From assembly GCA_964016885.1 (NCBI GenBank), contig OZ024752.1, positions 20,708,001 to 20,772,000 of the forward strand: a stretch of DNA of 64,000 nt, in the 5' to 3' direction. The notes beneath the pieces were generated by a model. That model saw only the letters and a list, made by a program, of their open reading frames with translations, was not told the origin of the DNA and ran no database searches. The DNA comes from Eledone cirrhosa. Taxonomy: Eukaryota. Of the stretch, positions 23,197 to 43,823 are shown piece by piece (positions within the stretch are counted from its first letter, which is position 1; each line of letters starts with the position of its first letter). A program made the translations under genes and the position numbers.

Positions 23197-25358
23197 ATTC
23201 GTTATTTTTTTTAATCTACAAATTATCTTATTTTATTTAACATTCACTTAACTATATATTTATGGCTATTTTATAAACATATGTCTATGTTTCTCTTCAA
23301 TATTCAGATTATTTCAAAGCGTGTCTACTTCAATCATCATAAAATAACTCGCACATTTCCTATTTTAACATTAATTTAAAAAGTTTTTTCACCCTTAATA
23401 TTAATTCAGTATTTTATCGGATATTAAATCATATAAAATATTGTAAAAGAAAAATAAACTGATAATCTAACTATATTAAAAAACGCTGCTTTGAAGACTA
23501 AAAAGCATGTATTTCTGTTCTCGGATCTTAAATTTGAGTCACGATTGTAAAATAAAATCATTTAAATGTAATTTATATGTGAAAAATATATAATTGTTCA
23601 TAAAATTATAATATAAAATGCTCTGAAAGTCTTGAATATCCGCATGTTTAATAACAATATATAATGTAATAAACTGTTTTAATTGTGAAATCGCCATTAA
23701 ATATAATAACCCAAACCTTTTTAACTTTCGGTTAGAATATTTAAAGACCACTTCACGGGGGCAATTGTAAAAATTAGCCATGTTTTCTGTTTAACTCTTT
23801 GGTAGCATTTCAATATCCATCCCACGTGTCTATCTTGGTGGACACAGTCGAGCGACATGCTAGAAAGAGCAGCCAAATATCTCTGAAACTGCACGCTCTC
23901 TTTAAAAGTATTGCATCGGTGATAGATTTCGAAATAAAATGAAAACATCCCATTACATTAACCCTGCTCATTTCGTATGCATCGCTCATTCAAATATGGA
24001 ATCACGGATCACCTTTGAAGAAAATCAAAATATCCTTTCTGATTCCTCACCTATATACGCATTACCTCATCGACTTAGTTGAGATATTTTTTATTTTATC
24101 CAAAGAAGATTTATTATCAACTGATGTCCTATATACACACGAGCCAGTGAGAGAACCTCATCTATAATTCTAACGTCTGTACATAACGAATCGAGTATCT
24201 CGATTTTGATATATTTCGAGATATTGTCAAGGATTCTCTAACTCATCCAAACAACATTTTGTGTAATTGATACAAAAATTCATTTCAATTGTTTTGTATG
24301 ATATAGTCGTCGTGCGCTGCACTTTCCTGACTAACAACTTTATTTTATTTACATAAAGCTTGATTGAAGTGTTAAATTTATAAATGTAACTCTGTAACAT
24401 ATTTGAAGAATAGTTTAACCACCTTCCCTCTTTAAAGATATTTTATTTAGTAAGTTAGATACATTGGATTAAATTAAGCTACTCTGATATCTAAGGATAT
24501 TTTTACTTATTAATGTAGATACACTGGAGTAAATTAAGGCCCCCGTGTAGTGGAGAAGAATTAAGGAGAGAATGAAAACTAGAAATCGCCTGATAAATTA
24601 AAAAAAATATACTATTATTTCAAGTCACCTCCCAAACGAGTATGAGGTTAACTTTGCCTTTCATCCTTTCAAGATCGATAAAATAAAACAGCAGTAATGC
24701 ACTGGGATAGTTGCTGGCTTTGTGCCAACAGTAGAATTTATTTTAAATTACAATTATTGTTATTTCCCTGTACAGAAAGTACACTTTCAAAGTAAACTTT
24801 AATAAAATCAAAAACCTAAATGTTCTTAGTTTTGTTTCCCTGTATACGGTCTCACAAGAATACGGAAGCTGTCTTCATGCTACAACAATAGGGAACTTCT
24901 ATACTTGAGTTCTTGCGAAACTTTCATTCTACTTTCGGACAATGCATCGAGTGTGGCAGCTGCCAAGTTATCCTCAAACTATAGATTTAGCTTATTAGTT
25001 GGATTGCGGTTCGACATATATCCAATAATGGAGAAACGTACAGTTTTAGTGATTTCAGTATATTATGGGAAGCAACAGAAAGCATCTTAACCTACCTAAA
25101 ACTTATGTGGGTTGGAGATCATCCACAATCTGTGATATTAGAATTCCAACAAAAATACTATGTTTAATTGTTGAGATTCTTCAGGTATATATGTGGCCAG
25201 CACCAGGAAGTCTCAATATATTGGGTATATGCCAGGATTGTCTTGTAAGTAGTTTATCTCTGATCTGGAGCTCTTTCATTCATACATGACTCTTCATACT
25301 TGTATACATCTCACCAACTCTTCTTCAGTAGAATTTCATTGACTTTTTCTGTTTCTAG

Positions 25359-25423
25359 ATGACTCAGAGACTTACATTCAGACGTCGATTGTCTTACAAT
25401 ACCAAGTCAAACCGAAGAAAGGT
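25359..25423 (+). CDS. RPL34: RPL34 (eL34) first coding exon, MTQRLTFRRRLSYNTKSNRRK(V)
   Basis: tttctAG|ATG start and GTaagt donor. Clear eL34 N-terminus. Confidence 0.97.
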
Positions 25424-26167
25424 GTAAGTAATTGAAATCGTCTCTACACGTCTCATTTTCTGTTTTACAGTGTTGTGTCTAATTTAGAGATCACTTGTTT
25501 TTTACCTGTCATGTTAGTAACCTTAGTATATATACACACACACGTGTACAAATATCATCACACTTAATTTTTAATTTCAATAATTGTATATAAATCGACC
25601 AATCACATTATTTGTATTTTCATATATATAGCACACCAAGTCAGCATTACATTTTTGAGTACTAACATGGCTACCATTTCAAGCGAAAAACATGCTAATA
25701 TCATTTTTTTTCACAAGGAAGGTTATTCTCAAGTGCCAAACATCTGTACGATTGGGTGTATCTAAGACTGATGTTCAAAAATTAATATTGCTCCCAAAAC
25801 ATTGACAGCTGTGGGGTTATCACTATATGGGTCACTGTTGATGCCACAGCTATTTTGACCTAGGTTGAGAGGAAAAGGGTTATGGAAGACAATTTATAAT
25901 ATAAATCTTTCTCTGTCTTCATTAATTTAATGTTTTACAGTTAGGTTTTTCTGTAACCATAAGATAAATTGCCCTATTTACTTTTGTAATTTTCTGTTAG
26001 GGCAGCACAAATTAGGAAGATAACACTGTTGAGTTGTCATTATTTAATGGAAATTTATCGTTTCCTTGAGAATTCAATTAATTATTAAAATTAAGTATTT
26101 ATGTCATAAATAAATGAATGTTTAATGCTTGTTTTCATTTCTTTTCTGTGGTGATGAACATAAACAG

Positions 26168-26181
26168 CTCCAAGACCCCTG
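26168..26181 (+). CDS. RPL34: RPL34 14-nt micro-exon, (V)SKTP(G)
   Basis: cAG|CTCCAAGACCCCTG|GTgagt. Supplies the conserved KTPG and restores the frame. Confidence 0.92.
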
Positions 26182-26218
26182 GTGAGTATTCTATTGATCC
26201 TTTTGATTTTAAATCTTA

Positions 26219-27018
26219 TTAGACTACCCATGACCCAATGGTTCACAGGTATTTTTATTGCTAGAAATAGCAGTAACTTTCTGATGCGGACAGAAGTCTA
26301 TACACACACATGATGATGATGACTATTTTTATATATATGTATTCTATGTCTTGCCTCCCATGGGCCTTCCAATTTAATTTTACAATATATATGTGTCTTA
26401 AACTTGACTGCACTAAGGCTTTTCGGAAATGAAACAACGGTAAGTGCTCTGGCGATCTGATTGGTTATCACAAAGCTGTTGTCTATTTATGAAGGTACCC
26501 GGAAAAACCCTGTATCTCAAGAATCCGTGCTCTGATTTATGTGAAATTTGTTTTCCATTTCAGAGGCAATTTCCTTTCAAAGTATTTTCCCATTATGTGT
26601 CGTTTTGGCTGTATTAAATTACAGACAAGCACACAAATCACAGAGTTTTGGTAGTATACTAGACCACCCGTGACCCGTTGGGTCCCATTCACTTAAAAAT
26701 AATTTTTGAATAATTAAAATATACACAGACATGTATATAACGTGAAATGAAACTGGAAGGCCCATATATATATGTGTTTGTATACATATATATATACACC
26801 ACCAGCTCTCTGTCTCCTCTCCTCTCTATGTCTCTCTTTCAATCTACTCTCTCTCTCTATGAAGGTGCCTGGAAAAAAAACATATCTCGGGAACCCGTGC
26901 TTCGATTTACTCGAAACTTGTTTTATCCGTTTCAGGGTCAACTTCCTTTCAAAGTATTTTCCCATTTGGTTGTATAGACAAGCAAGCAAGCTATCACAGA
27001 GTTTTAGTAGTATATAGA
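26219..27018 (-). mobile_element. Two head-to-tail non-autonomous Helitron-like units (26219-26657, 26659-27018)
   Basis: On the minus strand the second unit has a 5' TC and a hairpin plus CTAG 3' end. 26486-26657 is a diverged copy of 26857-27013. Confidence 0.55.
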
Positions 27019-27828
27019 TAGATAGGCATGGCTGTGTGGTTAAGGAGTTTGTTTTGCTACCATGTGTGGTTTTAGGCACAGTCCTTCAGCGTAACACTTT
27101 GGATATGTGTATTCTCTCTTTGACCAATGCTTTGTGAGTGTAATTTGGTAGGTAGAAGCTGTTGAAATATGATAGGTGTGTCTACACATTTACTGACCCC
27201 TATTTGTAGAACTGAACAGTTCTACAAATAGGGGTCAATGTGATTGACTAAATTCCTTCAAATTTGATTACAGTCTAATGACTAAAACCAGTAAAATATA
27301 TTAGCTGTATATTGAGAAATCTGTGCCAACTTGACCAGATGATGTTGCAATGGTCTATTTTCTGATATTACAATTGACTATTTGTTAGATATGAAATTGA
27401 TTTCACTTAATGAAGAATTTTGAGGGATTTAAGGTAGATTTATATTTAAATAGGAACCTTTCAAAATGGATAGTTTCATAAAACCAGAATCGTTTTTGAC
27501 TGGGTTGGAATCAAAAAGGCTAATCTTCATTTCAAAATCCCTAATGATCCATTTTAGATATGTATATGTCTACTAGAAAATATATAAAATTGAATATATC
27601 TGTTTGGGATAATAGCTTGAATCTTAAACCCCTGGGCAATAAATGACCAAATTTAGTACTGTTGCTATACATGACCTAGGCGAAATACACATCAAATTGT
27701 CCTAAAATGTTGAGATTTACATCCTCAGTAATTCCGTTACAATTTTCACAATGGAAATATTTGTTTATTACATGCCTACAGCTTTAAAAATATGAGAATA
27801 TCACTTGTTTCTTTTTTATTTATTTCAG

Positions 27829-27908
27829 GTGGTAAACTTGTTTATCTGTATGTAAAGAAACTTGGAACAATACCTAAATGTGGTGACTGCAAGGAGCCCT
27901 TGAGAGGG
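27829..27908 (+). CDS. RPL34: RPL34 exon, GKLVYLYVKKLGTIPKCGDCKEPLRG
   Basis: tttcAG acceptor and GTacgt donor. 80 nt, contains the CxxC. Confidence 0.96.
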
Positions 27909-28615
27909 GTACGTTAAATCAATAAGTTTATGAAAAGTAAAGTAAGATTGTAAAAACTTAGTATAAAAGTATAGAATGTTGAGATTATTATGTAGAAAAT
28001 TGTGGAGTATTTTATGGTTGAATAGAAACAATTTTTGAGAATGATGCTTTTTATTCAATTCCAAAACACCAACTTCAGTATGGAAGCACACAAGTTTGTG
28101 TGACAACTTTTATTAGAAAAGGTGGTTGCCAGCTTTTAACCCATGTACACTATATCACTGCTGGAACACTCCTATAATTTTGCTCGCTCTCCTCTTCCTT
28201 CATAGGGGCTAATATAGTCTAGAGCAAGGGTCTGAAACATTTGGCCTACTGCAGAACAATTTTCATGACTTGATAATTCGTCACTGCAAGATTCCTTTCC
28301 ATTTTTTCACTGAGCTCATCCAATCATTGATACACTAAATAATGTGCATTTGATTGCAATTTATTAAAAATGGAAATGGGAAAATAGAAATTTATCAAAA
28401 ATAAAAACAATTATGGAAAGTTTATTCCAAGTATCTGACATTTTTTTTATTGGTTTTTTTTTTTCAATCAAAATTTTTTAAAAGATTTATTGGAAAGAAT
28501 ATTTGAAAATATATATATATACTTATCTTATCTAGTCATGGGTTTTGCCATATATACTTTATGTAAGTAACATGGGGGTACTTGTAGTTATTTTTGTATT
28601 CTTTGTTTGATTCAG

Positions 28616-28719
28616 ATCACTCCAGCCAGACCCATCAAATGGATGTCTATGTCCAGACGACATAAGAAGGTATCCCGGGCATATGGAGGTTCTAGGTGTC
28701 ACCAGTGTGTTAGAAACAG
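28616..28719 (+). CDS. RPL34: RPL34 exon, ITPARPIKWMSMSRRHKKVSRAYGGSRCHQCVRN(R)
   Basis: ttcAG acceptor and GTatat donor. 104 nt, VSRAYGG signature. Confidence 0.97.
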
Positions 28720-29736
28720 GTATATATGTGTTTGTTAGCTATAAATTTCTCATTGCACCCACTGCGCCCAGCTTCATTTTATTCAATTTAACAATATCAG
28801 TGTAGTTGTTTCCTGAAAGGGTCAGTTGGATGTCAATATTGACAGTAGATTGTATCTAAATAGTTACACGAGTATTGTGTTCAGCTTTATATTTTTATTG
28901 ATTCATGCCTTTTGGTTCTGTGAAAATGCAAATGAAGATTGAGTGTAGAGTTCTGAGATATTTCTTCTTTTGAAATATGTATATCAATGGTGATTTCAGC
29001 ACAGACTTTGCCCAGGTAGTCCAACTCTTAAGTCATGTCATCATCATCATCATCATCATCATCATTTCATTTGACGTCCACTTTTTCCCTGCTTGCAAGG
29101 GTGGGATGTATGGATGTATAATCACACATATTTATATTACTAGTGAACCTGCACTGTCATAATTGACAGTGATTTGCATGTATATTAAGTTATTCATATA
29201 TACAAGGCATATGCAAAGGAATGGGAAACAATCTCTGGAATTCAAAGCTTTGATAATTGATGATTTAACCCTTTAGCATTTAAACTGGCCATGTTCGGCC
29301 AGAATTTTCTCACCTCTTTCAGTTCAAACTGGCTGTAACCAGCCACCCATACTTATGTTAAGATATTGTTCTTAAAATAAATAATGCCAAAATCTCAGAT
29401 TCGATATTGTGTAAGATAAAGCCTTTATCATGAAAATACAATAGTATATATAGAGTAACGTTAAAGTGGAAGAAAAAGCTTTTCTAGGTGGATGGATAGG
29501 ATAACATTAGAATCCTTCTAAATATATATTGTTTGGAAATTAGAGATCAATATTATATCATATGTTGGTATATTACTTGCATTTACTATTATATAAATTT
29601 TTGGTTAGTTCATTGATATAATAAAGCAATTTTATGAAGATATAAATTTATGCATTAATATGAGAAAATAAAGCATGAAATTTACATGAATCCTGTTGGT
29701 AGTTATAGGTTGTAAAAGTTTGGGTGTCATTGAATT

Positions 29737-29810
29737 TGTCAAATATGATGACTTAAGCACTGGGCTATGACTAAATATCTGATTCTAACGTGCTTTACTG
29801 ATCTTTGACA
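29737..29810 (+). ncRNA. SNORD88: Box C/D snoRNA copy 1, SNORD88/snR76-like
   Basis: Box C ATGATGA 29745-29751, guide AGCACTGGGC, D' ATGA, box D CTGA 29798-29801, terminal stem tgtcaaa/tttgaca. Confidence 0.88.
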
Positions 29811-30163
29811 TATAAATGATGGCAATTAAGTTAATATCACAGTGACCAATGTTAAATGTGAAATTATGACTAGTTTTCCACTGTAGCACTTCTGTCAAGT
29901 ATAAGATTATTGAGATAAATGTTTATGGCCAATGAATTCTATGTCAGCCAAATGACATAATCAATATATGGTTTGCCTTTTAGCATTCACATTAATTTGT
30001 CAAATGTCATGTTTATCTATTCACATTATTTTCAGTTAATCCCGCCGAGGTTAACTTTGCCTTTCATCCTTACGGGGTCGATAAAATAAAGTACCAGTAA
30101 TGTACTGGGTAATTGCTGGCCTTGTGCCTAAAGTAGAAACAATTATTTTCAGTTAATCATTTA

Positions 30164-30346
30164 GGCGGTGGATTGGCAGTATCGGTAGAGGGTCGGACGC
30201 CATGCTTTGCAGCAAAGAGTTACGGCGCTTTACGATCTGAGTTCAAATCCCCCGGTTAACTTTGCCTTTCATCCTTACGGGGTCAATAAAATAAAGTACC
30301 AGTAATGTACTGGGTAATTGCTGGCCTTGTGCCTAAAGTAGAAACA
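30164..30346 (+). mobile_element. Full-length tRNA-derived SINE, preceded by a 5'-truncated copy (30042-30141)
   Basis: A box TGGCAGTATCGG at 30174 and B box GAGTTCAAATCC at 30239. Flanked by the 17-bp repeat attattttcagttaatc. Confidence 0.85.
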
Positions 30347-30435
30347 ATTATTTTCAGTTAATCATACTCAAGGGGGTTATCAATGTTATTTGTTTGTAAT
30401 TTTCTATGTACAGACTTGATGTTTTGTCAGATGTT

Positions 30436-30958
30436 TAACCCTTTAGCATTTAAACCAGCCATATCCAGCCAGAATTCTCACATCTTTCTGTTCAAACCAG
30501 CTGTAAATGGCTACTCATACTTATGTTAAGGCATTCTTCTCAAAATAAATAGTATCAAAATCTCAGATTTAATATTATGTGAAATAAAGTGTTTACCGTG
30601 AAAATACAATAGTATATATAGAGTCATCATCGTCATTTTACGTCCGCTTTTCCCTGCTTGCAAGGGTGGGACGGGAACTGATTCTGGCTTGATTTCTACA
30701 GCTGGATGCCCTTCCTAACACCAACCTCATTTACAGTGAGTGCCGGGTGCTATTTTGCAGTGGAATGATATGGACCCCAATCCCTATCATCTCATTTCTA
30801 CAGCTGAGTAAACTGGAGCAATGTGAAATAAAGTGTCTTGCTCAAGGAAACAACACAACACCCGGTCTGAGAATTGAACTCACAACCTTTCGATTGCAAG
30901 CCCAATGCTCTAACCACTAAGCCATGTGCCTCCAGTAATGTAAATGCTAAAGGGTTAA
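30436..30958. mobile_element. piggyBac-type MITE (TTAA-CCCTTTAGCATTTA termini) with a nested minus-strand tRNA-SINE (30624-30933)
   Basis: Terminal inverted repeats bounded by TTAA. The nested SINE closely resembles 59865-60206. Confidence 0.75.
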
Positions 30959-31555
30959 GGGCAATGTACTGGTTAATTCTATTAAGAATTCAACATTTCT
31001 TACAAAACTTGAATTTATCCTCTAAAATCTAAATCATTTTAGTTCAAACAACTGGACCATTAATATTAATAAACTGATTTACTGTAAATAAATTTTGTCT
31101 GAGTTTCTGAAATGGGCAATTATTATTATATCTTTACGGGGTCAATAAAATACAGTACCAGTCACGCTGATCAGAAAAGTGTCAAAATGAATACAGGTCA
31201 TCAAAACACAACCAACAAATTCATTTTAGAATAGATTTTTATTTTAACCACCTTGCCCTGAAACTTTTTTACTTTCTAAAAAGTAATTGTTTTAAGCATC
31301 AGATTTAAAATAAGCAAAAAAAAAAAAAATGCAAATAATTTTTTTTTATTTTTAAATTAAATGTTTGCCAATTTGATCAAAATTCTATAAGAAGTTAAAT
31401 AGAACAGGAGATAAATTGTTGTTTTGGAAGATTCATTATATATAATGAATCTTCCAAAACAACAATAGGATTCACACACGCATGAGCGGAATATCACGTG
31501 TCTCATTATTTGGTTATAAAAGACGGATTATTTTGTGTATTGTACGCTCAGTATT

Positions 31556-31586
31556 TGATTCTAGCGTACTTCTCTGATTTTTGACA
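31556..31586 (+). pseudogene. Decayed 3' half of the same C/D snoRNA
   Basis: tgattctagcgtacttctCTGAtttttgaca aligns to tgattctaatgtgcttcaCTGAtttttgtca. Box C and the guide are absent. Confidence 0.55.
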
Positions 31587-32557
31587 TGGTTCTTTATATT
31601 TTACTACAAACGGGTTCATCATCATTGTCGTCTTTACGTCCGCTTTTCCACATTTGCATGGCTCTGACAGGTCGTTTTCAGCACAGCCAAAGTATTTATA
31701 TTTATCTAAAAATTTTCCATCGTGGTCTTATTTTTATGTTATGTTTCTAACACCAGCTCAATAATGAAAAAAGTTAGTTATATTACTAAATCTTTCCAGA
31801 TTCATAATTATTTCCAAAATCATAGGCAATGTCTTTAGAAATAATGGTAGAAAAAGGGTTAATCCAGGTTTGCACCTGAGTTTAATTTTTTGTTTTACTT
31901 TATTCCTTCATGTCAAGTCACCTGAATCAACCTATATCTTCTGGTGTCTGTTAAGTGAGACTCATTTAGAGGCTACTCAACAACACAGAGGCTGTTAGAG
32001 CACTTGCTGACATATTTGTCAAATTCAATATATTGGAAGAGTGTTGGTGACATGTCAAAAAGCATCCAGTCTAACCTGTTGGATGGTCGTTTTGGTGCCA
32101 TGATAAAAAGTAACATGGTTGGGTTTAGGAAAGGCATCCATCTGTAGAAACCAAACCAAAATACAGATCCATATGAGCATGCTGGTCTACAGGCATGACT
32201 TGTCACAACGTGACAACCCGTCTAACCCATGCAAGCGTGGGAAAATGAGCATTAAATGATGTCCAGAGAACATCAATGTTGGGTGACTTTACATCGGTCA
32301 GTCTAGTAAATAGTCTTCTCAAACAGCAGTAGATAGTTCCTGAATCTTGGATGGACTATGTCTAATTGCAATAGAAAACAATTCACTACGTTTTACAGGA
32401 TTTAAAGAATTTTAGTATTCAGTTTTGCACAGCTCTTACCAAAGTGTCATGAATTATGATCTTAAATGTATGTTCAGTTAAAAAAGATGGTAAAATTAAG
32501 TGTAAAAGTCTGATAGATATATGTTGTAAAAGACAATTTGGAGGTCATTGAAATTAC

Positions 32558-32630
32558 TTGATCAAATATGATGACTTAAGCACTGGGCTATGACTATCTG
32601 ATTCTAATGTGCTTCACTGATTTTTGTCAA
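32558..32630 (+). ncRNA. SNORD88: Box C/D snoRNA copy 2
   Basis: Box C 32568-32574, same guide, box D 32617-32620, terminal stem present. Confidence 0.88.
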
Positions 32631-34156
32631 GTTTATATTTCACTGTAACTAATTTTTGATAATTTGATTGCTTGTGCATGGGCAGGCATAATGGCTTGAA
32701 CAAACCATCTAAAAATATGAATCATCATTATTTAACTTCTGTTAGACAGGTCTACGTAGACCAAGTCAGTATTGAAGCAGGGCTACTGACTCTCAGACAA
32801 GCTGAGGGGTCTGCATCTCACATATGGTCATACATTTTTCCAAGTGCAGAGAAGTTATATCTTTTGACACAAATTGAAGTGTCCTCCCGGCCTCTTGTTT
32901 GGCAAGTTCCTAACACTAACTACTTTACAATGTGTACTACAAATAGTTTGGCAATTTATATTTGCACTTATCTTTCACCCTGTTCCTTCAAATTGACCTA
33001 TATCCAATACAATTGCTCTGTATTTGTCAATACCTGAATAAGATGTCTGTCAACTCATGTATAGGATTTATAATCCATTGGTTAACATACTTCTAATGAG
33101 ATACATTGCTTATGATTTTCAAATTGTTTTGAAAAGATTTAGTAATATAACTAGCTCTCCCATAATTAACCCTTTAGCATTTAAATTACTCTATATTTAC
33201 TATTGTATTTTCACGGTAAACATGTTATCTCGCATAATATCGAATCTGTGAGATTTTTATATTTATTTTGACATAACTATAAGTAGCCTGCTACGGTTGG
33301 TTTGTGCAGAAAGCGATGAGAAAATTCTGGCCAGATACGTCCGGTTTAAAACTTGAAGGTTCTTACATAAAATTATGAAACATTTAAAATAAAAATATAC
33401 AGATTTGTGTCATGGAACGGGGGCAGGTATCAGAAGCATTACAACTGGTTGCCCAGAAGATATATGTATTGCCATGGTGAGAATATAGTTAGGGGCTTCA
33501 TAATACATTCTAAATTATTTTGGTGAAAACTCCTCAAGCTCCATGTGTCAGAACCTCAATATTTTGGGATTGTGTTTCACAGGAGTTATGTATTCATTGT
33601 ACCAGTCATATCACTATTTACTTACACCAACCTTTTGAACTAGTTGTAAATTATTCATGTAAAGATTAAGTGGTTAAAATTCTAGCAGTAAATTTAATTA
33701 GGTGCTCTATGCTCAATAATGGGTCTTCTCAATCGGTATGGGCAGCCAGTTACAGCTGGTTTGAATAGAAGGGTGAGAGAAATTTGGTCGGATACAGCCA
33801 GTTTAAAGGGTTAAAATTTCAGTATAACACTAAGCTTTTTTATACTAAACCACTCTTGCTTCTATAATGCATCCAATACAATAGCCTTGTGTATACCCTA
33901 ATGAGGTTCGTCTCTCAACCCATGTATAGGATTATGTTCATCCATTTGTTATACTTCTAATGAAAAGGTGATTAAACTGTTAGCTTCTTATAAATTTAAT
34001 GAGGTTTTCTTTGCTTAATTGTACCAATATTCTACTATGGCCAATACATTTGTGTCTCTTATAGAAAGGGGTGAGTTATTGTTGTGTCTAAATTAACAAA
34101 GCATAGTTAGGTAGGGGTTGTGTTAGGTTATAATATGCTGCAATTTATGTGTCAGT

Positions 34157-34220
34157 TAAATATGATGACTTTAAGCACTGGGCTATGATTGAATGATTCT
34201 GATGTGCTTCACTGATTTCT
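34157..34220 (+). ncRNA. SNORD88: Box C/D snoRNA copy 3 (variant B)
   Basis: Box C 34162-34168, box D 34212-34215, guide AGCACTGGGC. Confidence 0.85.
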
Positions 34221-35086
34221 TGCATACATTGTATATACTTCCTATGACTCTGATTTTTGACATGGTTCTTTACATTTCACTACAAATGGGTTGTTTTATG
34301 TGGCAGTGGTCTGGCATAGACAGCCATAAGTGTTTGTTCCATCTAAAGTATATATATAGATAAAACTATTGAAGTTATACCCATCTTGTTAATCTGGGTT
34401 TCTTTGCTTCCTTCTTCAGTCAGAGAATCAATTTGTATTGACTGAGGTGTGTTAGTAGAGGAGTTAGACACATTCCACCAGTTGTTGGTCTACTGATTTA
34501 TGTAACAATTGTAGCTATGCCTTCAGTGGATAACCAATTAATAGTAAATTTAATATTCATTCCAACATGGTCACTGCTGAATACTCTTCTAGGATATCCA
34601 TTGTCAGATATTTTCGAATGATTATCTTTGTGCATAAATACACGCACAATCTTCTTGGGGGAGAAAGGATGGTGACATGTAGGCTCAATCCATCCATTGT
34701 CTTGAGATGATGACTATCTTTATGTATAGACACACACACATTCTTCTTGGGAGAGAGATTGGTGAAATTTAGACTTGATCCATTCATTGTTAGATATCTT
34801 CAGATAATGATTATCTTGGTCTATAGGGACTAAGTTTCACAACAATAAGAATTTAATGGTCTAATACGAGAAATATAACTATTTTAATGTACAACTCAAT
34901 ATTTACCATCAATACTCACATTCACTAACCCCTTGTAGCTAGATTTGATTGGGATCACGTGTTCACATGACATTGTTTTATGTCCACTTCCCATACTGGC
35001 TGCATGGGTTGGACTAAGTATTGAAGTAGATACTTTACAATGTGATCAGCCCCTAGATTAATTAGTGTGGGTGTTATTGAATTACT

Positions 35087-35162
35087 CGGTCAACTATGAT
35101 GACTTAAGCACTGGGCTATGATTAAATATCTGATTCTAGTGTGCTTCACTGATATTTGACTG
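35087..35162 (+). ncRNA. SNORD88: Box C/D snoRNA copy 4 (variant A)
   Basis: Box C 35096-35102, box D 35149-35152, stem cggtcaa/ttgactg. Confidence 0.87.
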
Positions 35163-35969
35163 ATTCTATATTTAACTACCTAATTATTACACCAAAGGGG
35201 GGGGGGGTCTCTATATGTCATGGGTTTTTTTTTATATAGGGCAGTACTCAACTAATTAAAGAATATAACATCTAAAAGTCAAAGAATGATTTGAAATCTC
35301 ATGTCAACATTGTTGAGTTGGTTCTAACAAATTACAATACCTGTGTTTCAGTTAATTTTGAAATTAATGCAACAGCAAATTTGTCATGTCGTTTTAACTC
35401 TAGCATTTACATTACTCTATATTATTGTATGTTCACAGTAAAGGGCTTTACCTCATATAACTATCCCGCATAATATTGGATCTATGAGATTTTGATGTTT
35501 TTTTATTTTGAGAACAATACTTTAATGTCGGTATGGGCGGCCAGTTACAGCTGGTTTGAATAGAAGGGTGAGAGAATTCTGGTCGGATACAGCCAGTTTA
35601 AATGCTAAAGGGTTAAAATTTCAGTATAACACTAAGCTTTTTTATACTAAACCTTGTACTAAACTCTTGCTTCTATAATGCATCCAATACAATAGCCCTG
35701 TGTTAATACCCTAATGAGGTTCGTCTCTCAACCCATGTATAGGATTATGTTCATCCATTTGTTATACTTCTAATGAAAAGGTGATTAAACTGTTAGCTTC
35801 TTATAAATTTAATGAGGTTTTCTTTGCTTAATTGTACCAATATTCTACTATGGCCAATACATTTGTGTCTCTTATAGAAAGGGGTGAGTTATTGTTGTGT
35901 CTAAATTAACAAAGCATAGTTAGGTAGGGGTTGTGTTAGGTTATAATATGCTGCAATGTATGTGTCAGT

Positions 35970-36033
35970 TAAATATGATGACTTTAAGCACTGGGCTATG
36001 ATTGAATGATTCTGATGTGCTTCACTGATTTCT
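35970..36033 (+). ncRNA. SNORD88: Box C/D snoRNA copy 5 (variant B)
   Basis: Box C 35975-35981, box D 36025-36028, external stem caatgtatgt/gcatacattg. Confidence 0.85.
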
Positions 36034-36899
36034 TGCATACATTGTATATACTTCCTATGACTCTGATTTTTGACATGGTTCTTTACATTTCACTACAAAT
36101 GGGTTGTTTTATGTGGCAGTGGTCTGGCATAGACAGCCATAAGTGTTTGTTCCATCTAAAGTATATATATAGATAAAACTATTGAAGTTATATCCATCTT
36201 GTTAATCTGGGTTTCTTTGCTTCCTTCTTCAGTCAGAGAATCAATTTGTATTGACTGAGGTCTGTTAGTAGAGGAGTTAGACACATTCCACCAGTTGTTG
36301 GTCTACTGATTTATGTAACAATTGTAGCTATGCCTTCAGTGGATAACCAATTAATAGTAAATTTAATATTCATTCCAACATGGTCACTGCTGAATACTCT
36401 TCTAGGATATCCATTGTCAGATATTTTCGAATGATTATCTTTGTGCATAAATACACGCACAATCTTCTTGGGGGAGAAAGGGTGGTGACATGTAGGCTCA
36501 ATCCATCCATTGTCTTGAGATGATGACTATCTTTATGTATAGACACACACACATTCTTCTTGGGAGAGAGATTGGTGAAATTTAGACTTGATCCATTCAT
36601 TGTTAGATATCTTCAGATAATGATTATCTTGGTCTATAGGGACTAAGTTTCACAACAATAAGAATTTAATGGTCTAATACGAGAAATATAACTATTTTAA
36701 TGTACAACTCAATATTTACCATCAATACTCACATTCACTAACCCCTTGTAGCTAGATTTGATTGGGATCACGTGTTCACATGACATTGTTTTATGTCCAC
36801 TTCCCATACTGGCTGCATGGGTTGGACTAAGTATTGAAGTAGATACTTTACAATGTGATCAGCCCCTAGATTAATTAGTGTGGGTGTTATTGAATTACT

Positions 36900-36975
36900 C
36901 GGTCAACTATGATGACTTAAGCACTGGGCTATGATTAAATATCTGATTCTAGTGTGCTTCACTGATATTTGACTG
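36900..36975 (+). ncRNA. SNORD88: Box C/D snoRNA copy 6 (variant A)
   Basis: Box C 36909-36915, box D 36962-36965. Confidence 0.87.
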
Positions 36976-37781
36976 ATTCTATATTTAACTACCTAATTAT
37001 TACACCAAAGGGGGGGGGGTCTCTATATGTCATGGGTTTTTTTTTATATAGGGCAGTACTCAACTAATTAAAGAATATAACATCTAAAAGTCAAAGAATG
37101 ATTTGAAATCTCATGTCAACATTGTTGAGTTGGTTCTAACAAATTACAATACCTGTGTTTCAGTTAATTTTGAAATTAATGCAACAGCAAATTTGTCATG
37201 TCGTTTTAACTCTAGCATTTACATTACTCTATATTATTGTATGTTCACAGTAAAGGGCTTTACCTCATATAACTATCCCACATAATATTGGATCTATGAG
37301 ATTTTAATGTTTTTTTATTTTGAGAACAATACTTTAATGTCGGTATGGGCGGCCAGTTACAGCTGGTTTGAATAGAAGGGTGAGAGAATTCTGGTCGGAT
37401 ACAGCCAGTTTAAATGCTAAAGGGTTAAAATTTCAGTATAACACTAAGCTTTTTTATACTAAACCTTGTACTAAACTCTTGCTTCTATAATGCATCCAAT
37501 ACAATAGCCCTGTGTTAATACCCTAATGAGGTTCGTCTCTCAACCCATGTATAGGATTATGTTCATCCATTTGTTATACTTCTAATGAAAAGGTGATTAA
37601 ACTGTTAGCTTCTTATAAATTTAATGAGGTTTTCTTTGCTTAATTGTACCAATATTATACTATGGCCAATACATTTGTGTCTCTTATAGAAAGGGGTGAG
37701 TTATTGTTGTGTCTAAATTAACAAAGCATAGTTAGGTAGGGGTTGTGTTAGGTTATAATATGCTGCAATGTATGTGTCAGT

Positions 37782-37845
37782 TAAATATGATGACTTTAAG
37801 CACTGGGCTATGATTGAATGATTCTGATGTGCTTCACTGATTTCT
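37782..37845 (+). ncRNA. SNORD88: Box C/D snoRNA copy 7 (variant B)
   Basis: Box C 37787-37793, box D 37837-37840. Confidence 0.85.
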
Positions 37846-38709
37846 TGCATACATTGTATATACTTCCTATGACTCTGATTTTTGACATGGTTCTTTACAT
37901 TTCACTACAAATGGGTTGTTTTATGTGGCAGTGGTCTGGCATAGACAGCCATAAGTGTTTGTTCCATCTAAAGTATATATATAGATAAAACTATTGAAGT
38001 TATACCCATCTTGTTAATCTGGGTTTCTTCTCTTCCTTCTTCAGTCAGAGAATCAATTTGTATTGACTGAGGTGTGTTAGTAGAGGAGTTAGACACATTC
38101 CACCAGTTGTTGGTCTACTGATTTATGTAACAATTGTAGCTATGCCTTCAGTGGATAACCAATTAATAGTAAATTTAATATTCATTCCAACATGGTCACT
38201 GCTGAATACTCTTCTAGGATATCCATTGTCATATTTTCGAATGATTATCTTTGTGCATAAATACACGCACAATCTTCTTGGGGGAGAAAGGGTGGTGACA
38301 TGTAGGCTCAATCCATCCATTGTCTTGAGATGATGACTATCTTTATGTATAGACACACACACATTCTTCTTGGGAGAGAGATTGGTGAAATTTAGACTTG
38401 ATCCATTCATTGTTAGATATCTTCAGATAATGATTATCTTGGTCTATAGGGACTAAGTTTCACAACAATAAGAATTTAATGGTCTAATACGAGAAATATA
38501 ACTATTTTAATGTACAACTCAATATTTACCATCAATACTCACATTCACTAACCCCTTGTAGCTAGATTTGATTGGGATCACGTGTTCACATGGCATTGTT
38601 TTATGTCCACTTCCCATACTGGCTGCATGGGTTGGACTAAGTATTCATGTAGATACTTTACAATGTGGTCAGCCCCTAGATTAATTAGTGTGGGTGTTAT
38701 TGAATTACT

Positions 38710-38785
38710 CGGTCAACTATGATGACTTAAGCACTGGGCTATGATTAAATATCTGATTCTAGTGTGCTCCACTGATATTTGACTG
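38710..38785 (+). ncRNA. SNORD88: Box C/D snoRNA copy 8 (variant A)
   Basis: Box C 38719-38725, box D 38772-38775; gtgctcca variant upstream of box D. Confidence 0.85.
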
Positions 38786-39586
38786 ATTCTATATTTAACT
38801 ACCTAATTATTACACCAAAGGGGGGTGGGGGGTCTCTATATGTCATGGGTTTTTTTTTATATAGGGCAGTACTCAACTAATTAAAGAATATTACATCTAA
38901 AAGTCAAAGAATGATTTGAAATCTCATGTCAACATTGTTGAGTTGGTTCTAACAAATTACAATACCTGTGTTTCAGTTAATTTTGAAATTAATGCAACAG
39001 CAATTTTGTCATGTCGTTTTAACTCTAGCATTTACATTACTCTATATTATTGTATGTTCACAGTAAAGGGCTTTACCTCACATAACTATCCCACATAATA
39101 TTGGATCTATGAGATTTTGATGTTTTTTTTATTTTGAGAACAATACTTTAATGTCGGTATGGGCGGCCAGTTACAGCTGGTTTGAACAGAAGGGTGAGAG
39201 AATTCTGGTCGGATACAGTCAGTTTAAATGCTAAAGGGTTAAAATTTCAGTATAACACTAAGCTTTTTTATACTAAACCACTCTTGCTTCTATAATGCAT
39301 CCAATACAATAGCCCTGTGTTAATACCCTAATGAGGTTCGTCTCTCAACCCATGTATAGGATTATGTTCATCCATTTGTTATACTTCTAATGAAAAGGTG
39401 ATTAAACTGTTAGCTTCTTATAAATTTTATGAGGTGTTCTTTGCTTAATTGTACCAATATTCTACTATGGCCAATACATTTGTGTCTCTTATAGAAAGGG
39501 GGGAGTTATTGTTGTGTCTAAATTAACAAAGCATAGTTAGGTAGGGGTTGTGTTAGGTTATAATATGCTGCAATGTATGTGTCAGT

Positions 39587-39650
39587 TAAATATGATGACT
39601 TTAAGCACTGGGCTATGATTGAATGATTCTGATGTGCTTCACTGATTTCT
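39587..39650 (+). ncRNA. SNORD88: Box C/D snoRNA copy 9 (variant B)
   Basis: Box C 39592-39598, box D 39642-39645. Confidence 0.85.
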
Positions 39651-39689
39651 TGCATACATTGTATATATTTCCTATGACTCTGATTTTTG

Positions 39690-40410
39690 AAGTATCAACC
39701 AGGTGCAAATACTGGTTTAATTTTAAATACGTTGTTTTCGGCATAATACTTGATATATAAGGATCCAGTAATTCCAGTCTTGGAAATTGTTTTATACCGA
39801 ACATAATATTTATGGTAAAAAATGCTTGCATTTCCGCAGCATCTGTCAGTTGCCAAACAGATCGGGTTTTCCTCGATTTGAAATCTGTTGTTGGGCATAT
39901 CGATTAATCTTTTCTGCCACAACTTCGAAGAAAATTTGTGGTAAAAACAAAAAGAAATAATCCAGTGCTTTAGCATCGGGAGCTAATGTGTATTATGGAC
40001 CAGTATTTTGAATAAAATCGGGAACATATATTAGTGTGGTATTTTTCAATGGCGTCCTGGTTCACTTTCAAAACAAACATCGTCGGACGAAATTTCAGAA
40101 ATATAAACATCAGATTCATTTGAATTCACTAATATTATCATTTGCTTCTTGTTTATTCTGAATGTCGTCGTGTGTAAAACCTTCAAAGTCGGTATCGCTA
40201 CTTTCATAGTCCATGTTGATACCAAAAAAATTTTTTGTACTTTCAAAGTTAAAAAAAACACTTATTTTAAGTTGTTTCACTATATTTAGTGTTAATTTTT
40301 GCGGTAAGGGCCTAATCTCGCAGTAATCTCAAATTGATGATGATATGTTTCTTTTTAGAACAATTTTTTAATGTGGGTGTTATCGGGCGGTTTGAACACT
40401 AAAGGGTTAA
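39690..40410 (-). mobile_element. piggyBac transposon 5' fragment with degraded transposase
   Basis: TTAA-CCC terminus at 40410, an acidic N-terminal region, and MQAFFTINIMFGIKQFP...MPKTTYLKLNQYLHLVD resembling a PGBD transposase. Confidence 0.75.
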
Positions 40411-40559
40411 ACTGTCAGCTTCTTATAAATTTAATGAGGTGTTCTTTGCTCAATTGTTCCAATATTCTACTATGGCCAATACATTTGTGTCTAAATTAAC
40501 AAAACATAGTTAGGTAGGGGTTGTATTAGGTTATAATATACTGCAATGTATGTGTCAGT

Positions 40560-40623
40560 TAAATATGATGACTTTAAGCACTGGGCTATGATTGAATGAT
40601 TCTGATGTGCTTCACTGATTTCT
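40560..40623 (+). ncRNA. SNORD88: Box C/D snoRNA copy 10 (variant B)
   Basis: Box C 40565-40571, box D 40615-40618; lies in a partial copy of the 1.8-kb unit. Confidence 0.85.
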
Positions 40624-41089
40624 TGCATACATTGTATATACTTCCTGCACTGGTGGTTTCATGTTAGCTGCCTGTTTTACTATGTTATTATTTCCTTCTC
40701 CACATGTCACCTGTTTCAGTTAATTTTGAAAATAATACTTTTACCATGTGGTTTTAATTTTAGTATGAATACTAAGCTTTTTTTATTCTAAACCACTCTT
40801 GCTTCTATGATCCAAAGTTGTATATTTTTTTAAATGTTCATAATTTATCCTAAAACCTTCCATTATAGTTTTATGTAAGAAACTTTGTTCCAAACACTAG
40901 CTTAATAATGAAGTTATGTTGCTAAATTCCTCAAAATGTTTTTGTGTTGAAATTTACAATTTTTCCCTTCTACAGTTCTTTCCTGTTACTTGATAGAATC
41001 TTCAGTTGGCAACTGTATATCTCCTTAGATCCTCTCTATATTTATGTATAATTACTATAAAACAAATGTTTTTTTGTTTTTTTATATAG

Positions 41090-41168
41090 AATTGTGCGAG
41101 CTTTCCTCATTGAAGAGCAGAAGATTGTGGTCCGTGTGCTGAAGGCACAAGAAGGCATGAAAAAATAA
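41090..41168 (+). CDS. RPL34: RPL34 last exon, (R)IVRAFLIEEQKIVVRVLKAQEGMKK*
   Basis: tAG acceptor, RAFLIEEQKIV signature, TAA at 41166-41168. Total CDS is 342 nt (113 aa). Confidence 0.97.
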
Positions 41169-41184
41169 ATCTTCATGACTTGTT

Positions 41185-41190
41185 AATAAA
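41185..41190 (+). terminator. RPL34 polyadenylation signal AATAAA
   Basis: 16 nt after the stop codon, followed by GT-rich sequence. Confidence 0.7.
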
Positions 41191-41689
41191 TTTTACTCTG
41201 TAAATCATTTGTTGTGTTAAAATTTATGTATAGTTTTTGTTGTAATAATGATTCAAAAAGTGCTGTCATCATTATTTCATCGTTGTTAGTATGAATTTTG
41301 TGTTAAGTACAATTTGAAGATGTGATGGAAATATTGGCTTGAAGTGTAAAGGAGGGTTTATCGCAGGAGTTGCTGTATTCTGATGAGTAAGTGGTAAAGC
41401 ATTTTGTGAGATCGAAATATAAACATTTCAAAATAAATGGTTTTGTTAAAACCAGGGGTAGTTAGGTATACAAGTTGTTATGGTAGCAACAATTTTATTT
41501 TGTAGAATGACTGACCAATAAGAATTTTACACAAATTTTGATAATGAAATTTATCCATGCCAGAATAAATATATTACAACTGACAATTTAACCAAGGTTT
41601 ATTAATTCAAATGTTTGTATCATATCTTGACTAGTTAACCCTTTAGCATTTACACAAAAGGTTTCTCTCTAAAAATGAAAGACATTGTA

Positions 41690-42390
41690 TGATGCCTGTA
41701 TATGAACAGCAATGCTACATGGGCATTGCGTGCAGAGGACCTGCGCAGACTGGAAAGGAATGAAGCATGGATGTATAATAGTAATATACATGAACGGCAA
41801 AACATAAATGAACTAAGTGAGAAATGAGGGATCAGATGCTGTTTGCTTGAGAGAAGACTATGTTGGTATGATCTCGTGGTGCGCATGAAAGACGACAGCT
41901 GTATAAAAATGTGCAGGGCGATAAAAATTGATGGAAGTTATGGAGTAGGTAGACTCAGAAAAACCTAGGAGGATTTGATAAATTCCGACCTTACACACTT
42001 GGACCTCTCCAAGACAATGTCACTGGACCGAGATCTTTGGCGCCACACAGTAATACCCACCTTGCCTATGTACAAAGCGAAACCTACAGTCAGTAGGCAC
42101 CTCTTAACCAAATATACACACCACCCTTTCTCTGTAAAGTTATGTTGGTACTACAACATCCAGTCCAAACTAATGAGATCGAGATGTGTAGGTGTCACAA
42201 CAAAAAGTACAGTCCACGCTGTAATGTGGCCGTGTCACGGTAAAAAGTTCCCAGTCCACACTGTAAATGTGGTTGGTGTTAGGAAAGGCATCCAGCCGTA
42301 GATAACCTGCCAGATAGTCCTATACAAGCGAGACCAATGGGACAATGCCCATGCTAACGTGGAAGATAAGACGTTAAATGATGATGATTA
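41690..42390 (+). mobile_element. RTE LINE 3' fragment, nested in a piggyBac-type MITE
   Basis: Degraded RT C-terminal region, shared 3' UTR and (GAT)n tail. The MITE end ttaaccctttagcatttac at 41635 resumes near 42390. Confidence 0.75.
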
Positions 42391-43823
42391 CTCTATACTA
42401 TTATATTTTCATGGTAAAGGCTTCGTCTCACATATCAAATCTATGAGATTTTGATATTTATTTTGAGAACAATACCATCACATCAGTATGAGTGGCAAGT
42501 TACGGCCAATTTGAACAGAAAGAGGTGAGAGAATTCTGGCCGGTTTAGCTTAAGAAATCTTTGAAATTGTGCGGTAAACTAAAGTAACGACTTTTAGGTC
42601 ATTGCTGTTTTGAACTTTTCAAGAACGTCTTCCTAATATTGTTTCATTAAGAGTTAATTTACTAACTCAGATTATAAAAGAAAAATATGTAAAATTCTTT
42701 TTATTCTCAGTAATTTTACAAATTATATTGATATCTCCTTTCTGTTAATATATATATACTGTGGATTGTACTGTAAAAGTTAGAAGTGCTGTAATTTAAA
42801 CAAAATAAATACTCTTGATTTCCTCAAATTTGAAAGGATATTGGGGCCACCCTTTTGATATCAACTTGGTCAGAACCAGTTCTGATTCTATGAAACAAAA
42901 TTGCACATTTTAAATTAAAATCTTAGTAATAAAATAATTTTAGTAAATCTCCACATTCTTCATTAATTGAAATATACTGCATTTCACAAGAAATGTCTTG
43001 AAAGGATTAAGATGAAAACAAAAAACACTCATTTAAAATTTAATTTTCACATAAACCTTAGGAAATAAAGAGTAAAGAATTTCTGAAATGTCACAATTAG
43101 AAATTTATATAGTAGGAGTATAGTTGAATTGACATTGTTAAAAGGTGTTGAGTTAAAGATGTTAGTATTTGTTCTGATACTGTGATCAACTTTGCCGGTC
43201 ATCTTTTGGGGTCAATAAAAAAAATTACTAATTTAAGGGTAGTGGATTAAGAGAATTATTGAAGTTGGACGGAATGTTTTGTGGTATCTGTTTGTCTCTG
43301 TGTTGAAATCTTGCCCCCCGTCACCAGGAAATGGGTGATGATTGGCAGATAGTATTCTCATTACCCAGGAAGCAATTAGCTTCATAATGTTATCATAAAT
43401 ATTCTCAAATATGATTTTTAAATGGCTGCATGACAAGACATCCTGCTCCAAATTAGTTTACTTCACTCTTCTTTTGACAGGCAATTTATCCTGAAATATT
43501 AAATAACTCCAATATAACATTCCAACATCTTTGTAATCATTATTTTAAAAATTTAATGTCCCATTTTCATTGCTGTAGCCTTCTAATACAAAACACTATT
43601 TTTCTATATTTTAAATAAATAAAAAAGAATTTCTTTACCCCTGTGGTGTGTGAATTCTGGTTCTTATGTGTGTGCACATTTTATATTATTAATGGAATCT
43701 TTTTAGCCAGAGAAGAGATAAGAAAGTGTACACCAGACATTAGACTCAGTCTGGAAGCAGGATATACTGGTCACTATTATTCTACAATCAGTTGCCCACC
43801 CTACACTATAGTAATCATTTTTA

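What the first reader, a model, noticed from the sequence alone, without database searches (positions are those of the whole stretch)
28720..41089. Processing problem: predicted sno-lncRNAs or an unknown endonucleolytic or hidden-exon route
Established: exonucleolytic trimming of a debranched lariat stops at the outermost snoRNPs, so two snoRNAs in one intron give snoRNA-capped lncRNAs (as in the human Prader-Willi SNORD116 region). Seen: I found no convincing exons between the copies. The nearest copy is ~470 nt from the 3' splice site and the farthest ~11 kb. Copies have flanking stems (tgtcaaa/tttgaca, cggtcaa/ttgactg, caatgtatgt/gcatacattg), as expected for splicing-independent assembly. 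Inference: this probably highly expressed intron yields a ladder of 0.9-11-kb sno-lncRNAs, or needs internal cleavage, cryptic NMD exons or recursive splicing.
Basis: inference. Interest (0 to 1): 0.75.

Follow-up and report, generated by a model that had tools for sequence, protein, structure and literature searches.

The report
Octopus introns packed with guide snoRNAs
One intron of an octopus-like ribosomal-protein gene holds ten copies of a small RNA predicted to guide a chemical mark on ribosomal RNA, and five other ribosome-related genes of this genome also pack several such RNAs into single introns, so the animal likely has a general, still unidentified way of cutting them apart where vertebrates mostly keep one per intron.

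Summary
Observation confirmed. The 12.4-kb last intron of RPL34 holds ten box C/D copies (weak SNORD88/snR76-clan hits, 10-nt match to the genome's own 28S rRNA) plus one decayed copy; seven lie in a young 1.8-kb tandem repeat.

The locus is not a one-off. Of eight other protein-coding hosts with a snoRNA call, five have shared introns: RPS12 (7), RPS8 (5; 6), RPL7A (6; 7-8), RPL4 (2), NOP58 (2). Three of these introns mix families. Internal copies keep boxes and guides while their flanks fall to background identity.

Across 32 spacers, hidden-exon scores equal control introns (mean p 0.48). Recursive sites and spacer hairpins are not enriched either (31 spacers). RPL34 itself has candidate cryptic exons, and there is a weak acceptor excess behind the copies.

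Best reading (0.5): an intronic snoRNA cluster assembled without splice-site coupling and cut internally, enzyme unknown. A stable sno-lncRNA ladder (0.2) and hidden exons (0.2) stay open; nothing was tested on RNA. Intronic clusters are known (fly H/ACA, plants), and this scan found such arrays on other DNA. C/D clusters as a common animal layout were not found in my literature searches.

The parts
25359..25423 (+). RPL34 (eL34) first coding exon
   Evidence: Pfam PF01199 positions 1-21; boundaries
26168..26181 (+). RPL34 14-nt micro-exon
   Evidence: AG/GT ends; restores the KVSKTPGG stretch printed for 9EHO_g
27829..27908 (+). RPL34 exon
   Evidence: PF01199 positions 28-53
28616..28719 (+). 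RPL34 exon before the cluster intron
   Evidence: 9EHO_g residues 54-87
28720..41089 (+). Last RPL34 intron, 12,370 nt, host of the snoRNA cluster
29745..29801 (+). C/D snoRNA copy 1 (C box to D box), type c1
   Evidence: Rfam SNORD88 24.9 bits, below cut-off
31500..31607 (+). Decayed eleventh copy: upstream flank and 3' half remain, C box and guide lost
   Evidence: alignment to copy 2; blast
32568..32620 (+). C/D snoRNA copy 2, type c2
33733..39690 (+). Tandem repeat, about 3.3 units of 1.8 kb, each with one type B and one type A copy; units start inside a short repeat with TTAA-flanked ends
   Evidence: contig data
34162..34215 (+). C/D snoRNA copy 3, type B (one substitution in the outer stem)
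34420..34446 (+). Candidate 27-nt cryptic exon (repeated from 36233 and 38045); unproven
   Evidence: acceptor 9.2, donor 8.5
35096..35152 (+). C/D snoRNA copy 4, type A
35240..35883 (+). Candidate cryptic acceptor 87 nt behind type A copies (35240, 37052, 38865) with possible donors at 35567 or 35883; unproven
35975..36028 (+). C/D snoRNA copy 5, type B
36909..36965 (+). C/D snoRNA copy 6, type A
37787..37840 (+). C/D snoRNA copy 7, type B
38719..38775 (+). C/D snoRNA copy 8, type A
39592..39645 (+). C/D snoRNA copy 9, type B
39690..40410 (.). High-copy repeat fragment ending at a TTAA site, between copies 9 and 10
   Evidence: summed contig depth about 10,000; right end
40565..40618 (+). C/D snoRNA copy 10, type B, 471 nt from the 3' splice site
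41090..41168 (+). RPL34 last coding exon to stop
   Evidence: 9EHO_g residues 89-113

Best explanation
The last RPL34 intron holds ten tandem copies of one box C/D RNA predicted to guide 2'-O-methylation of a 28S rRNA cytidine, one of at least eight multi-snoRNA introns in this genome, and the copies are likely assembled into snoRNPs without help from the branch point and then likely freed by cuts in the spacers followed by exonuclease trimming. Shown: copy number, boxes, guide match, flanking stems, tandem origin, recurrence in other genes. Inferred: (1) external stems make assembly independent of position, so a copy duplicated inside an intron can still work; (2) local duplication, partly between repeat copies, and decay then change copy number (birth and death); (3) an endonuclease opens the spacers, with no shared sequence or hairpin signal that I could find, and snoRNA-capped long RNAs are passing intermediates. 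The enzyme is unknown. An EndoU/XendoU-family gene is present and is only a candidate.
For: Same layout in RPS12 (7 copies, shortest spacer 186 nt), RPS8 (5; 4+2), RPL7A (5+1; 7-8 of three families, one H/ACA-like), RPL4 (2) and NOP58 (2). Flanking exons are contiguous in reference proteins for RPL34, RPL7A, RPS12 and RPS8 intron 3. The four RPL34 types are 84-93% identical in the body but 38-60% at 40-100 nt away, with a null of 51%; most old pairs in the other clusters show the same contrast. Stems are kept with different letters in each type. 24 of 38 clustered copies and 4 of 4 single copies printed have flank duplexes at p<0.05. Last or single snoRNAs lie 99-725 nt from the 3' splice site, only 1 of 9 within 100 nt, unlike the human preference (PMC5519232). 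Hidden-exon score against snoRNA-free introns: mean p 0.48, n=32. Recursive AG|GT sites: mean p 0.63, n=31. Precedent: fly H/ACA clusters (PMC3089462; PMC6619189), plant clusters thought to be cut endonucleolytically (PMC2875012), XendoU release in Xenopus (PMC10557570); PF09412 gene on C27.
Against: No step of the processing was observed. Spacers show no excess of hairpins that an RNase III could cut (mean p 0.54, n=31). The RPS12 cluster has no significant long stem (0 of 7), so stems cannot be the whole answer. Acceptor-like sites 50-130 nt behind D boxes are modestly enriched (p 0.002 against control introns, 0.025 against distal spacer, 0.07 against shuffles), and three RPL34 spacers hold plausible exons. 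In mammals two snoRNAs in one intron can give a stable sno-lncRNA (PMC4234469). Conservation of copy bodies could partly reflect gene conversion. Rfam scores are far below cut-off, and 13% of shuffled bodies match some rRNA 10-mer.
Confidence: 0.5

Rival explanations
1. Stable sno-lncRNAs: the debranched intron is trimmed only from its ends, giving a 10.9-kb RNA capped by copies 1 and 10 and, with partial snoRNP occupancy, shorter ones down to about 0.9 kb; free guide would come from molecules on which only one copy assembled.
For: The layout meets the prerequisite. Two snoRNP ends suffice to protect an internal sequence in human cells (PMC4234469). No cleavage signal was found in the spacers.
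Against: Internal copies in 7- to 10-member clusters keep perfect boxes and guides while flanks diverge, which end caps alone do not require. Mixed clusters hold families with different rRNA targets, whose guides would be tethered. In human H9 cells 48 paired snoRNAs gave seven detected sno-lncRNAs.
Confidence: 0.2
2. Hidden splicing: cryptic non-coding exons or alternative 3' splice sites divide the intron in a minority of transcripts, which are destroyed by NMD, so each copy leaves in its own lariat.
For: RPL34 candidates: exon 34420-34446; acceptor 35240, 87 nt behind type A copies; donors 34070/35883 with a perfect GTGAGT. Weak acceptor excess behind D boxes. Precedent in human multi-snoRNA hosts (PMC4233238) and fly mfl, where a C/D cluster turned out to be one per intron (PMC1821038).
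Against: No overall excess of exon-like pairs (mean p 0.46, n=31; 0.48, n=32). 11 of 31 spacers have no pair above the 10th percentile of real exons. Strong-site counts: donors 9 in 19.9 kb of spacer against 7 in 15.1 kb of control, acceptors 11 against 5. The model was trained on only 35 donors and 38 acceptors, and non-coding exons may use weak sites.
Confidence: 0.2
3. Mostly idle duplicates: only one or two copies per intron (for example the last) give product, and the rest are recent or converted duplicates that are degraded with the intron.
For: Seven RPL34 copies come from a very young repeat; decayed and half copies exist in RPL34, RPS8, RPS12 and RPL7A.
Against: Four old RPL34 types, and different families sharing one intron, are conserved against background flanks. 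In mixed introns each family has its own rRNA target, and in the stretches scanned no copy of those families was found in a separate intron.
Confidence: 0.08
4. Assembly artefact: the tandem units are false duplications.
For: Units are 99% identical; the three runs laid are one sample and may be the source of the assembly.
Against: Each unit has private substitutions. The unit contig has depth 33-35 against 8-9.5 for the single-copy 3' flank in 3 of 3 runs, close to the assembled 3.3 units; this is a rough hint only, since the tool warns that depth is no copy number. Four diverged types would remain even without the repeat.
Confidence: 0.02

Closest known systems
Intronic snoRNA clusters of Drosophila (Huang et al. 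2005, not held; seen through PMC3089462 and PMC6619189 passages)
   Same: Several snoRNA genes in one intron of an animal host gene; ribosomal-protein genes are frequent snoRNA hosts in flies (PMC13228274).
   Different: In the fly the clusters are H/ACA, and C/D loci are said to follow one per intron. Here the clusters are almost all C/D, with up to ten members and spacers of 0.2-3 kb.
Plant and Chlamydomonas intronic snoRNA clusters (PMC2875012 passages; rice and Chlamydomonas papers seen as titles only)
   Same: Same- and mixed-family clusters in one intron; release thought to need endonucleolytic cuts.
   Different: Animal host; spacers are long and full of repeats; no cleavage hairpin was found.
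Mammalian sno-lncRNAs (SNORD116 region, RPL13A, RPL7A; PMC4234469 parts 1-2 of 6)
   Same: Two or more snoRNAs between two exons; external protection by snoRNPs is possible.
   Different: Mammalian cases are pairs, often made by exon skipping. Here 2-10 copies sit in apparently constitutive introns. No stable long RNA was shown.
SNORD88 / snR76 clan (Rfam CL00071)
   Same: All ten copies hit the clan; the D' guide pairs with the own 28S site, with C as the predicted methylated nucleotide.
   Different: Scores are 21-25 bits against cut-offs of 46/55; the RNA is shorter (53-57 nt from C to D box). The equivalence to human Cm3680 and yeast Cm2197 is recalled, not tested.

Membership tests
Box C/D methylation-guide snoRNA | C box RUGAUGA and D box CUGA at the ends | tested here: met
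   10 of 10 copies
Box C/D methylation-guide snoRNA | Antisense element to rRNA just upstream of D or D' | tested here: met
   10-nt Watson-Crick match to own 28S before a D'-like ATGA; chance 0.0075 per site, 0.13 anywhere in a shuffled body
Box C/D methylation-guide snoRNA | Terminal or external stem | tested here: met
   8 of 10 copies at p<0.05; folds (z -0.1 to -4.0)
Box C/D methylation-guide snoRNA | Expressed as a small RNA bound to fibrillarin, target methylated | not testable with these tools
   needs RNA data and RiboMeth-seq
SNORD88/snR76 clan CL00071 | Rfam gathering score | tested here: not met
   21-25 bits against 46/55; works like it, formal membership not reached
Intronic snoRNA cluster | Two or more snoRNA genes between consecutive coding exons, same strand | tested here: met
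Intronic snoRNA cluster | No exon used between the copies | tested here: inconclusive
   no statistical excess, but candidates in RPL34; RNA needed
Intronic snoRNA cluster | Members released as separate mature RNAs | not testable with these tools
   inferred from conservation
sno-lncRNA | Two snoRNAs in one excised intron | tested here: met
   genomic prerequisite only
sno-lncRNA | Stable non-polyadenylated RNA spanning the spacer with snoRNA ends | not testable with these tools
   needs poly(A)-minus RNA-seq or Northern
RNase III-processed polycistronic snoRNA (Rnt1/Pac1 type) | Cleavage hairpin between members | tested here: not met
   best 100-nt fold of 31 spacers no better than control introns, mean p 0.54; the stems closing each snoRNA were not tested as substrates
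Recursive splicing | Strong AG|GT ratchet sites between copies | tested here: not met
   mean p 0.63; RPL34 spacers p 0.60-0.99

The most novel reading that the evidence does not exclude
Octopods have dropped the one-C/D-snoRNA-per-intron rule across the genome. Most methylation guides come from polycistronic introns of ribosomal-protein genes, so either an undescribed animal endonuclease pathway frees them or these highly transcribed introns yield abundant families of snoRNA-capped long RNAs, and guide dosage evolves quickly by tandem duplication.
Probability: 0.3. Interest if true: 0.75.

Novelty: new variant of a known kind. Interest (0 to 1): 0.52.

Why it matters
How several snoRNAs leave one animal intron is unsettled: reviews still describe one per intron, sno-lncRNAs for pairs, and no proven mammalian endonuclease (PMC11028025; PMC10557570; PMC12508059). 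This genome offers at least eight natural cases in housekeeping genes, with copy-specific sequence marks and named candidate splice sites, so one total-RNA experiment could separate the three routes. The RPL34 locus alone is a large but not unique example. The value lies in the genome-wide pattern, in an animal whose ribosome is already known to be unusual (PMC13321053, listing and passages).

Tried and rejected
RNA evidence: no RNA holder listed for window 24900-33700; this says nothing about expression. Only contigs of one sample could be laid, on 37860-41300, so the left part of the intron was not checked against read data.

Whole-genome Rfam searches for SNORD18 and snR60/Z15 found nothing, although SNORD18 is present, so that route is insensitive. 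The SNORD15 search led to a probably non-coding locus, not RPS3.

Metagenome pattern scan: 118 loci, none with an RPL34 exon hit, and the convincing C/D hits look plant-like; no second animal was reached.

Spacer hairpins and recursive sites are not enriched. Spacers appear richer in exon-like pairs than their antisense strand (mean p 0.18); I rejected this as evidence because snoRNA-free sense introns score alike. The tRNA-like SINE head in the intron is antisense, so it gives no RNase P/Z entry. A second guide before the D box was rejected: that stretch pairs with the RNA's own 5' part and gave no longer rRNA match.

Dropped before counting, as likely chance or overlapping duplicates: single scan calls at C3:196734283, C15:9635615, C2:16387188, C2:16390770, C5:71752122, C11:40597270, and alternative boundaries at C15:9628490 and C19:5379186. 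The C18 locus was left out of the intron census because its exons were not mapped. The script stopped after four of six single snoRNAs. Three primary papers were not held. Supplementary Table S1 of PMC11028025, which counts intronic clusters per species, was not opened and may bear on how rare C/D clusters are in animals.
Full report
Host gene. The window holds an RPL34 (eL34) gene on the + strand with coding exons 25359-25423, 26168-26181, 27829-27908, 28616-28719 and 41090-41168, all with AG/GT ends. Three exons match Pfam PF01199 in order. The two exons around the finding match residues 54-87 and 89-113 of chain 9EHO_g at 33/34 and 25/25 identity, and 9EHO is an octopus ribosome (PMC13321053, passages). 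The genome is 3.0 Gb. I infer an octopod. No coding exon is missing in 28720-41089.

The copies. Ten elements share a C box, a guide, a D'-like box and a D box, 53-57 nt from C to D. A genome search finds only these ten. None reaches an Rfam cut-off, but all ten hit clan CL00071 (SNORD88/snR76) at 21-25 bits. The guide pairs over 10 nt with the genome's own 28S rRNA, with a C under the fifth position from D'. A 10-mer match somewhere arises in 13% of shuffles; at that fixed place the chance is 0.0075. The names of the equivalent human and yeast sites are recalled. There are four old types (c1, c2, A, B) and one decayed copy.

Origin. Copies 3-9 lie in about 3.3 head-to-tail units of 1.8 kb that differ by 0.6-1.0%, each with private changes. 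Unit starts fall inside a very high-copy short repeat with TTAA-flanked ends, which suggests unequal exchange between repeat copies (inference). In contigs of three runs of one sample, the unit contig has depth 33-35 and the single-copy 3' flank 8-9.5. The tool warns that depth is no copy number and the sample may be the assembly's source, so this is only a rough hint that the array is real.

Selection on each copy. Bodies of the four types are 84-93% identical, while sequence 40-100 nt away is 38-60% identical, against a null of 51%. Flank stems persist with different letters; 8 of 10 copies beat random pairs at p<0.05. Two of the four types (c2, A) occur only at internal positions. The simplest reading is that internal copies are used; gene conversion is a partial alternative.

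It is a genome-wide layout. I fetched 23 other loci (607 kb) chosen as likely snoRNA hosts. I scanned 597 kb with my own C/D-plus-rRNA scan and 32 of the 61 pieces with Rfam (one search cut one of 151 rows). Nine loci gave a snoRNA call that I kept; eight are protein-coding. Five of the eight have shared introns: RPS12, 7 SNORD100-like copies plus a decayed one in 3.2 kb, shortest spacer 186 nt; RPS8, 5 SNORD35-clan hits in one intron and 4+2 copies of two families in the next; RPL7A, 5 copies of one C/D family (named SNORD24-like from recall) plus one SNORD36, and a 12-kb intron with 4 intact SNORD53/92-like, 2-3 SNORD103-like and one SNORA50-like gene plus four half copies; RPL4, 2 SNORD18; NOP58, 2 SNORD70. 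Flanking exons are contiguous in reference proteins for RPL7A, RPS12 and RPS8 intron 3. For RPS8 intron 4, RPL4 and NOP58, adjacency rests on reading translations against recalled proteins. Six introns hold a single call (RPL4 twice, NOP58, NOP56, RPL3, RPL13; some weak). Leaving RPL34 out, 7 of 13 snoRNA introns are shared. The sample is small, and repeated copies are easier to call than singles.

Position and stems. The last or only snoRNA lies 99-725 nt from the 3' splice site, 1 of 9 within 100 nt. Human C/D snoRNAs prefer about 50 nt before the branch point, and long external stems remove the dependence on splicing (PMC5519232, passages). Significant flank duplexes occur in 24 of 38 clustered copies and 4 of 4 singles printed, but in 0 of 7 RPS12 copies. 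Stems are therefore general in this genome, not a mark of clusters. I infer that assembly is largely independent of position, which lets duplicates inside an intron survive.

Hidden splicing. I trained splice matrices on 35 donors and 38 acceptors of eight genes. Best exon-like pairs in spacers score like 15 kb of snoRNA-free introns: mean p 0.46 (31 spacers, exons up to 300 nt) and 0.48 (32 kept of 38 after removing duplicates, up to 700 nt). Recursive sites: mean p 0.63. Against my reading: three RPL34 spacers score p 0.12, 0.07 and 0.01, one RPS8 spacer scores 0.01, type A copies have a strong acceptor 87 nt downstream, and acceptors 50-130 nt behind D boxes are in modest excess (p 0.002, 0.025, 0.07 by three nulls; copies are not fully independent; most such sites are weak). 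Hidden splicing is unlikely as the general rule and open for RPL34.

Cleavage signal. No excess of spacer hairpins (mean p 0.54). An EndoU-family gene exists. XendoU releases intronic snoRNAs in Xenopus, while its human homologue has not been shown to (PMC10557570, passages). The cutting step is thus inferred by exclusion and by precedent, not observed.

Comparison. Intronic clusters are a named category, and animals follow one per intron predominantly (PMC11028025, passages and section 3 part 1). Flies often have several per intron (PMC6619189, passage), but these are said to be H/ACA, with C/D one per intron (PMC3089462, passages); the mfl C/D cluster is one per intron (PMC1821038, passages). 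Arabidopsis has intronic clusters, including in RPL34B (PMC2875012, passages). Sno-lncRNAs need a pair, but few pairs give one (PMC4234469, parts 1-2 of 6). Alternative splicing with NMD serves human multi-snoRNA hosts (PMC4233238, part 1 of 2). The giant squid genome lists 118 C/D loci among 34 snoRNA families, and the passages seen give no intron analysis (PMC6962438). Searches listed no paper on C/D intronic clusters in molluscs (titles and abstract starts seen); subscription papers are not covered. Earlier notes of this scan describe a six-copy H/ACA array in an invertebrate RPL3 intron and larger arrays in a Euglena-like intron (unchecked).

Verdict. The feature is real and is a new variant of a known kind. 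Internal cutting 0.5, stable sno-lncRNAs 0.2, hidden exons 0.2, idle copies 0.08, artefact 0.02. Interest 0.52.

Noticed in passing
window 26168-26181: RPL34 has a 14-nt coding micro-exon with a weak, purine-rich acceptor; the encoded residues match the octopus eL34 chain.
   Followed up: partly
G000:C21:20574530-20586500 (L075, L052): A 12-kb RPL7A intron with 7-8 intact snoRNA genes of three families, C/D and H/ACA mixed, plus four half copies.
   Followed up: partly
G000:C15:21698284-21701502 (L049): RPS12 intron with seven SNORD100-like copies, spacers down to 186 nt, and only short stems; the best test case for release.
   Followed up: partly
G000:C15:9624823-9630822 (L022, L023): Two successive RPS8 introns hold 11 C/D genes of three families.
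   Followed up: partly
G000:C18:42089696-42090350 (L016, L017): SNORD15-like gene followed within 700 nt by one or two further C/D-like elements and short splice-like sites, with no coding exon seen: probably a non-coding snoRNA host gene.
   Followed up: no
G000:C4:88595306 and 88622827: Two near-equal RPS3 C-terminal exon hits 27.5 kb apart on the same strand: tandem RPS3 duplicate or assembly duplication.
   Followed up: no
window 29265-42543: Many copies of a short repeat with TTAA-flanked inverted ends (piggyBac-like by recall), in both orientations; summed contig depth up to 2e5. Inverted pairs inside the intron could form double-stranded RNA.
   Followed up: partly
window 33002-33099, 33871-33963, 40712-40814: Older duplicated spacer pieces (74-86% alike) show that earlier duplications carried several hundred bases of flank; the piece behind copy 10 lacks the repeat insertion found behind type A copies.
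   Followed up: partly
window 30867-30924 (-): tRNA-like head of a SINE, Rfam tRNA 31 bits; similar hits recur in other fetched loci.
   Followed up: no
G000:C2:16382800-16384250 (L031, L032): Transposase-like reading-frame remnants (piggyBac-like by recall) inside a NOP56 intron.
   Followed up: no
G000:C27:9143073-9148900: EndoU/XendoU-family gene, three exon hits.
   Followed up: no
G000:C12:25170590-25178703 (L011), L014: The own 28S (Rfam match 5.1-6.3 kb) and 18S (2.9 kb) rRNA genes are much longer than the Rfam models.
   Followed up: no
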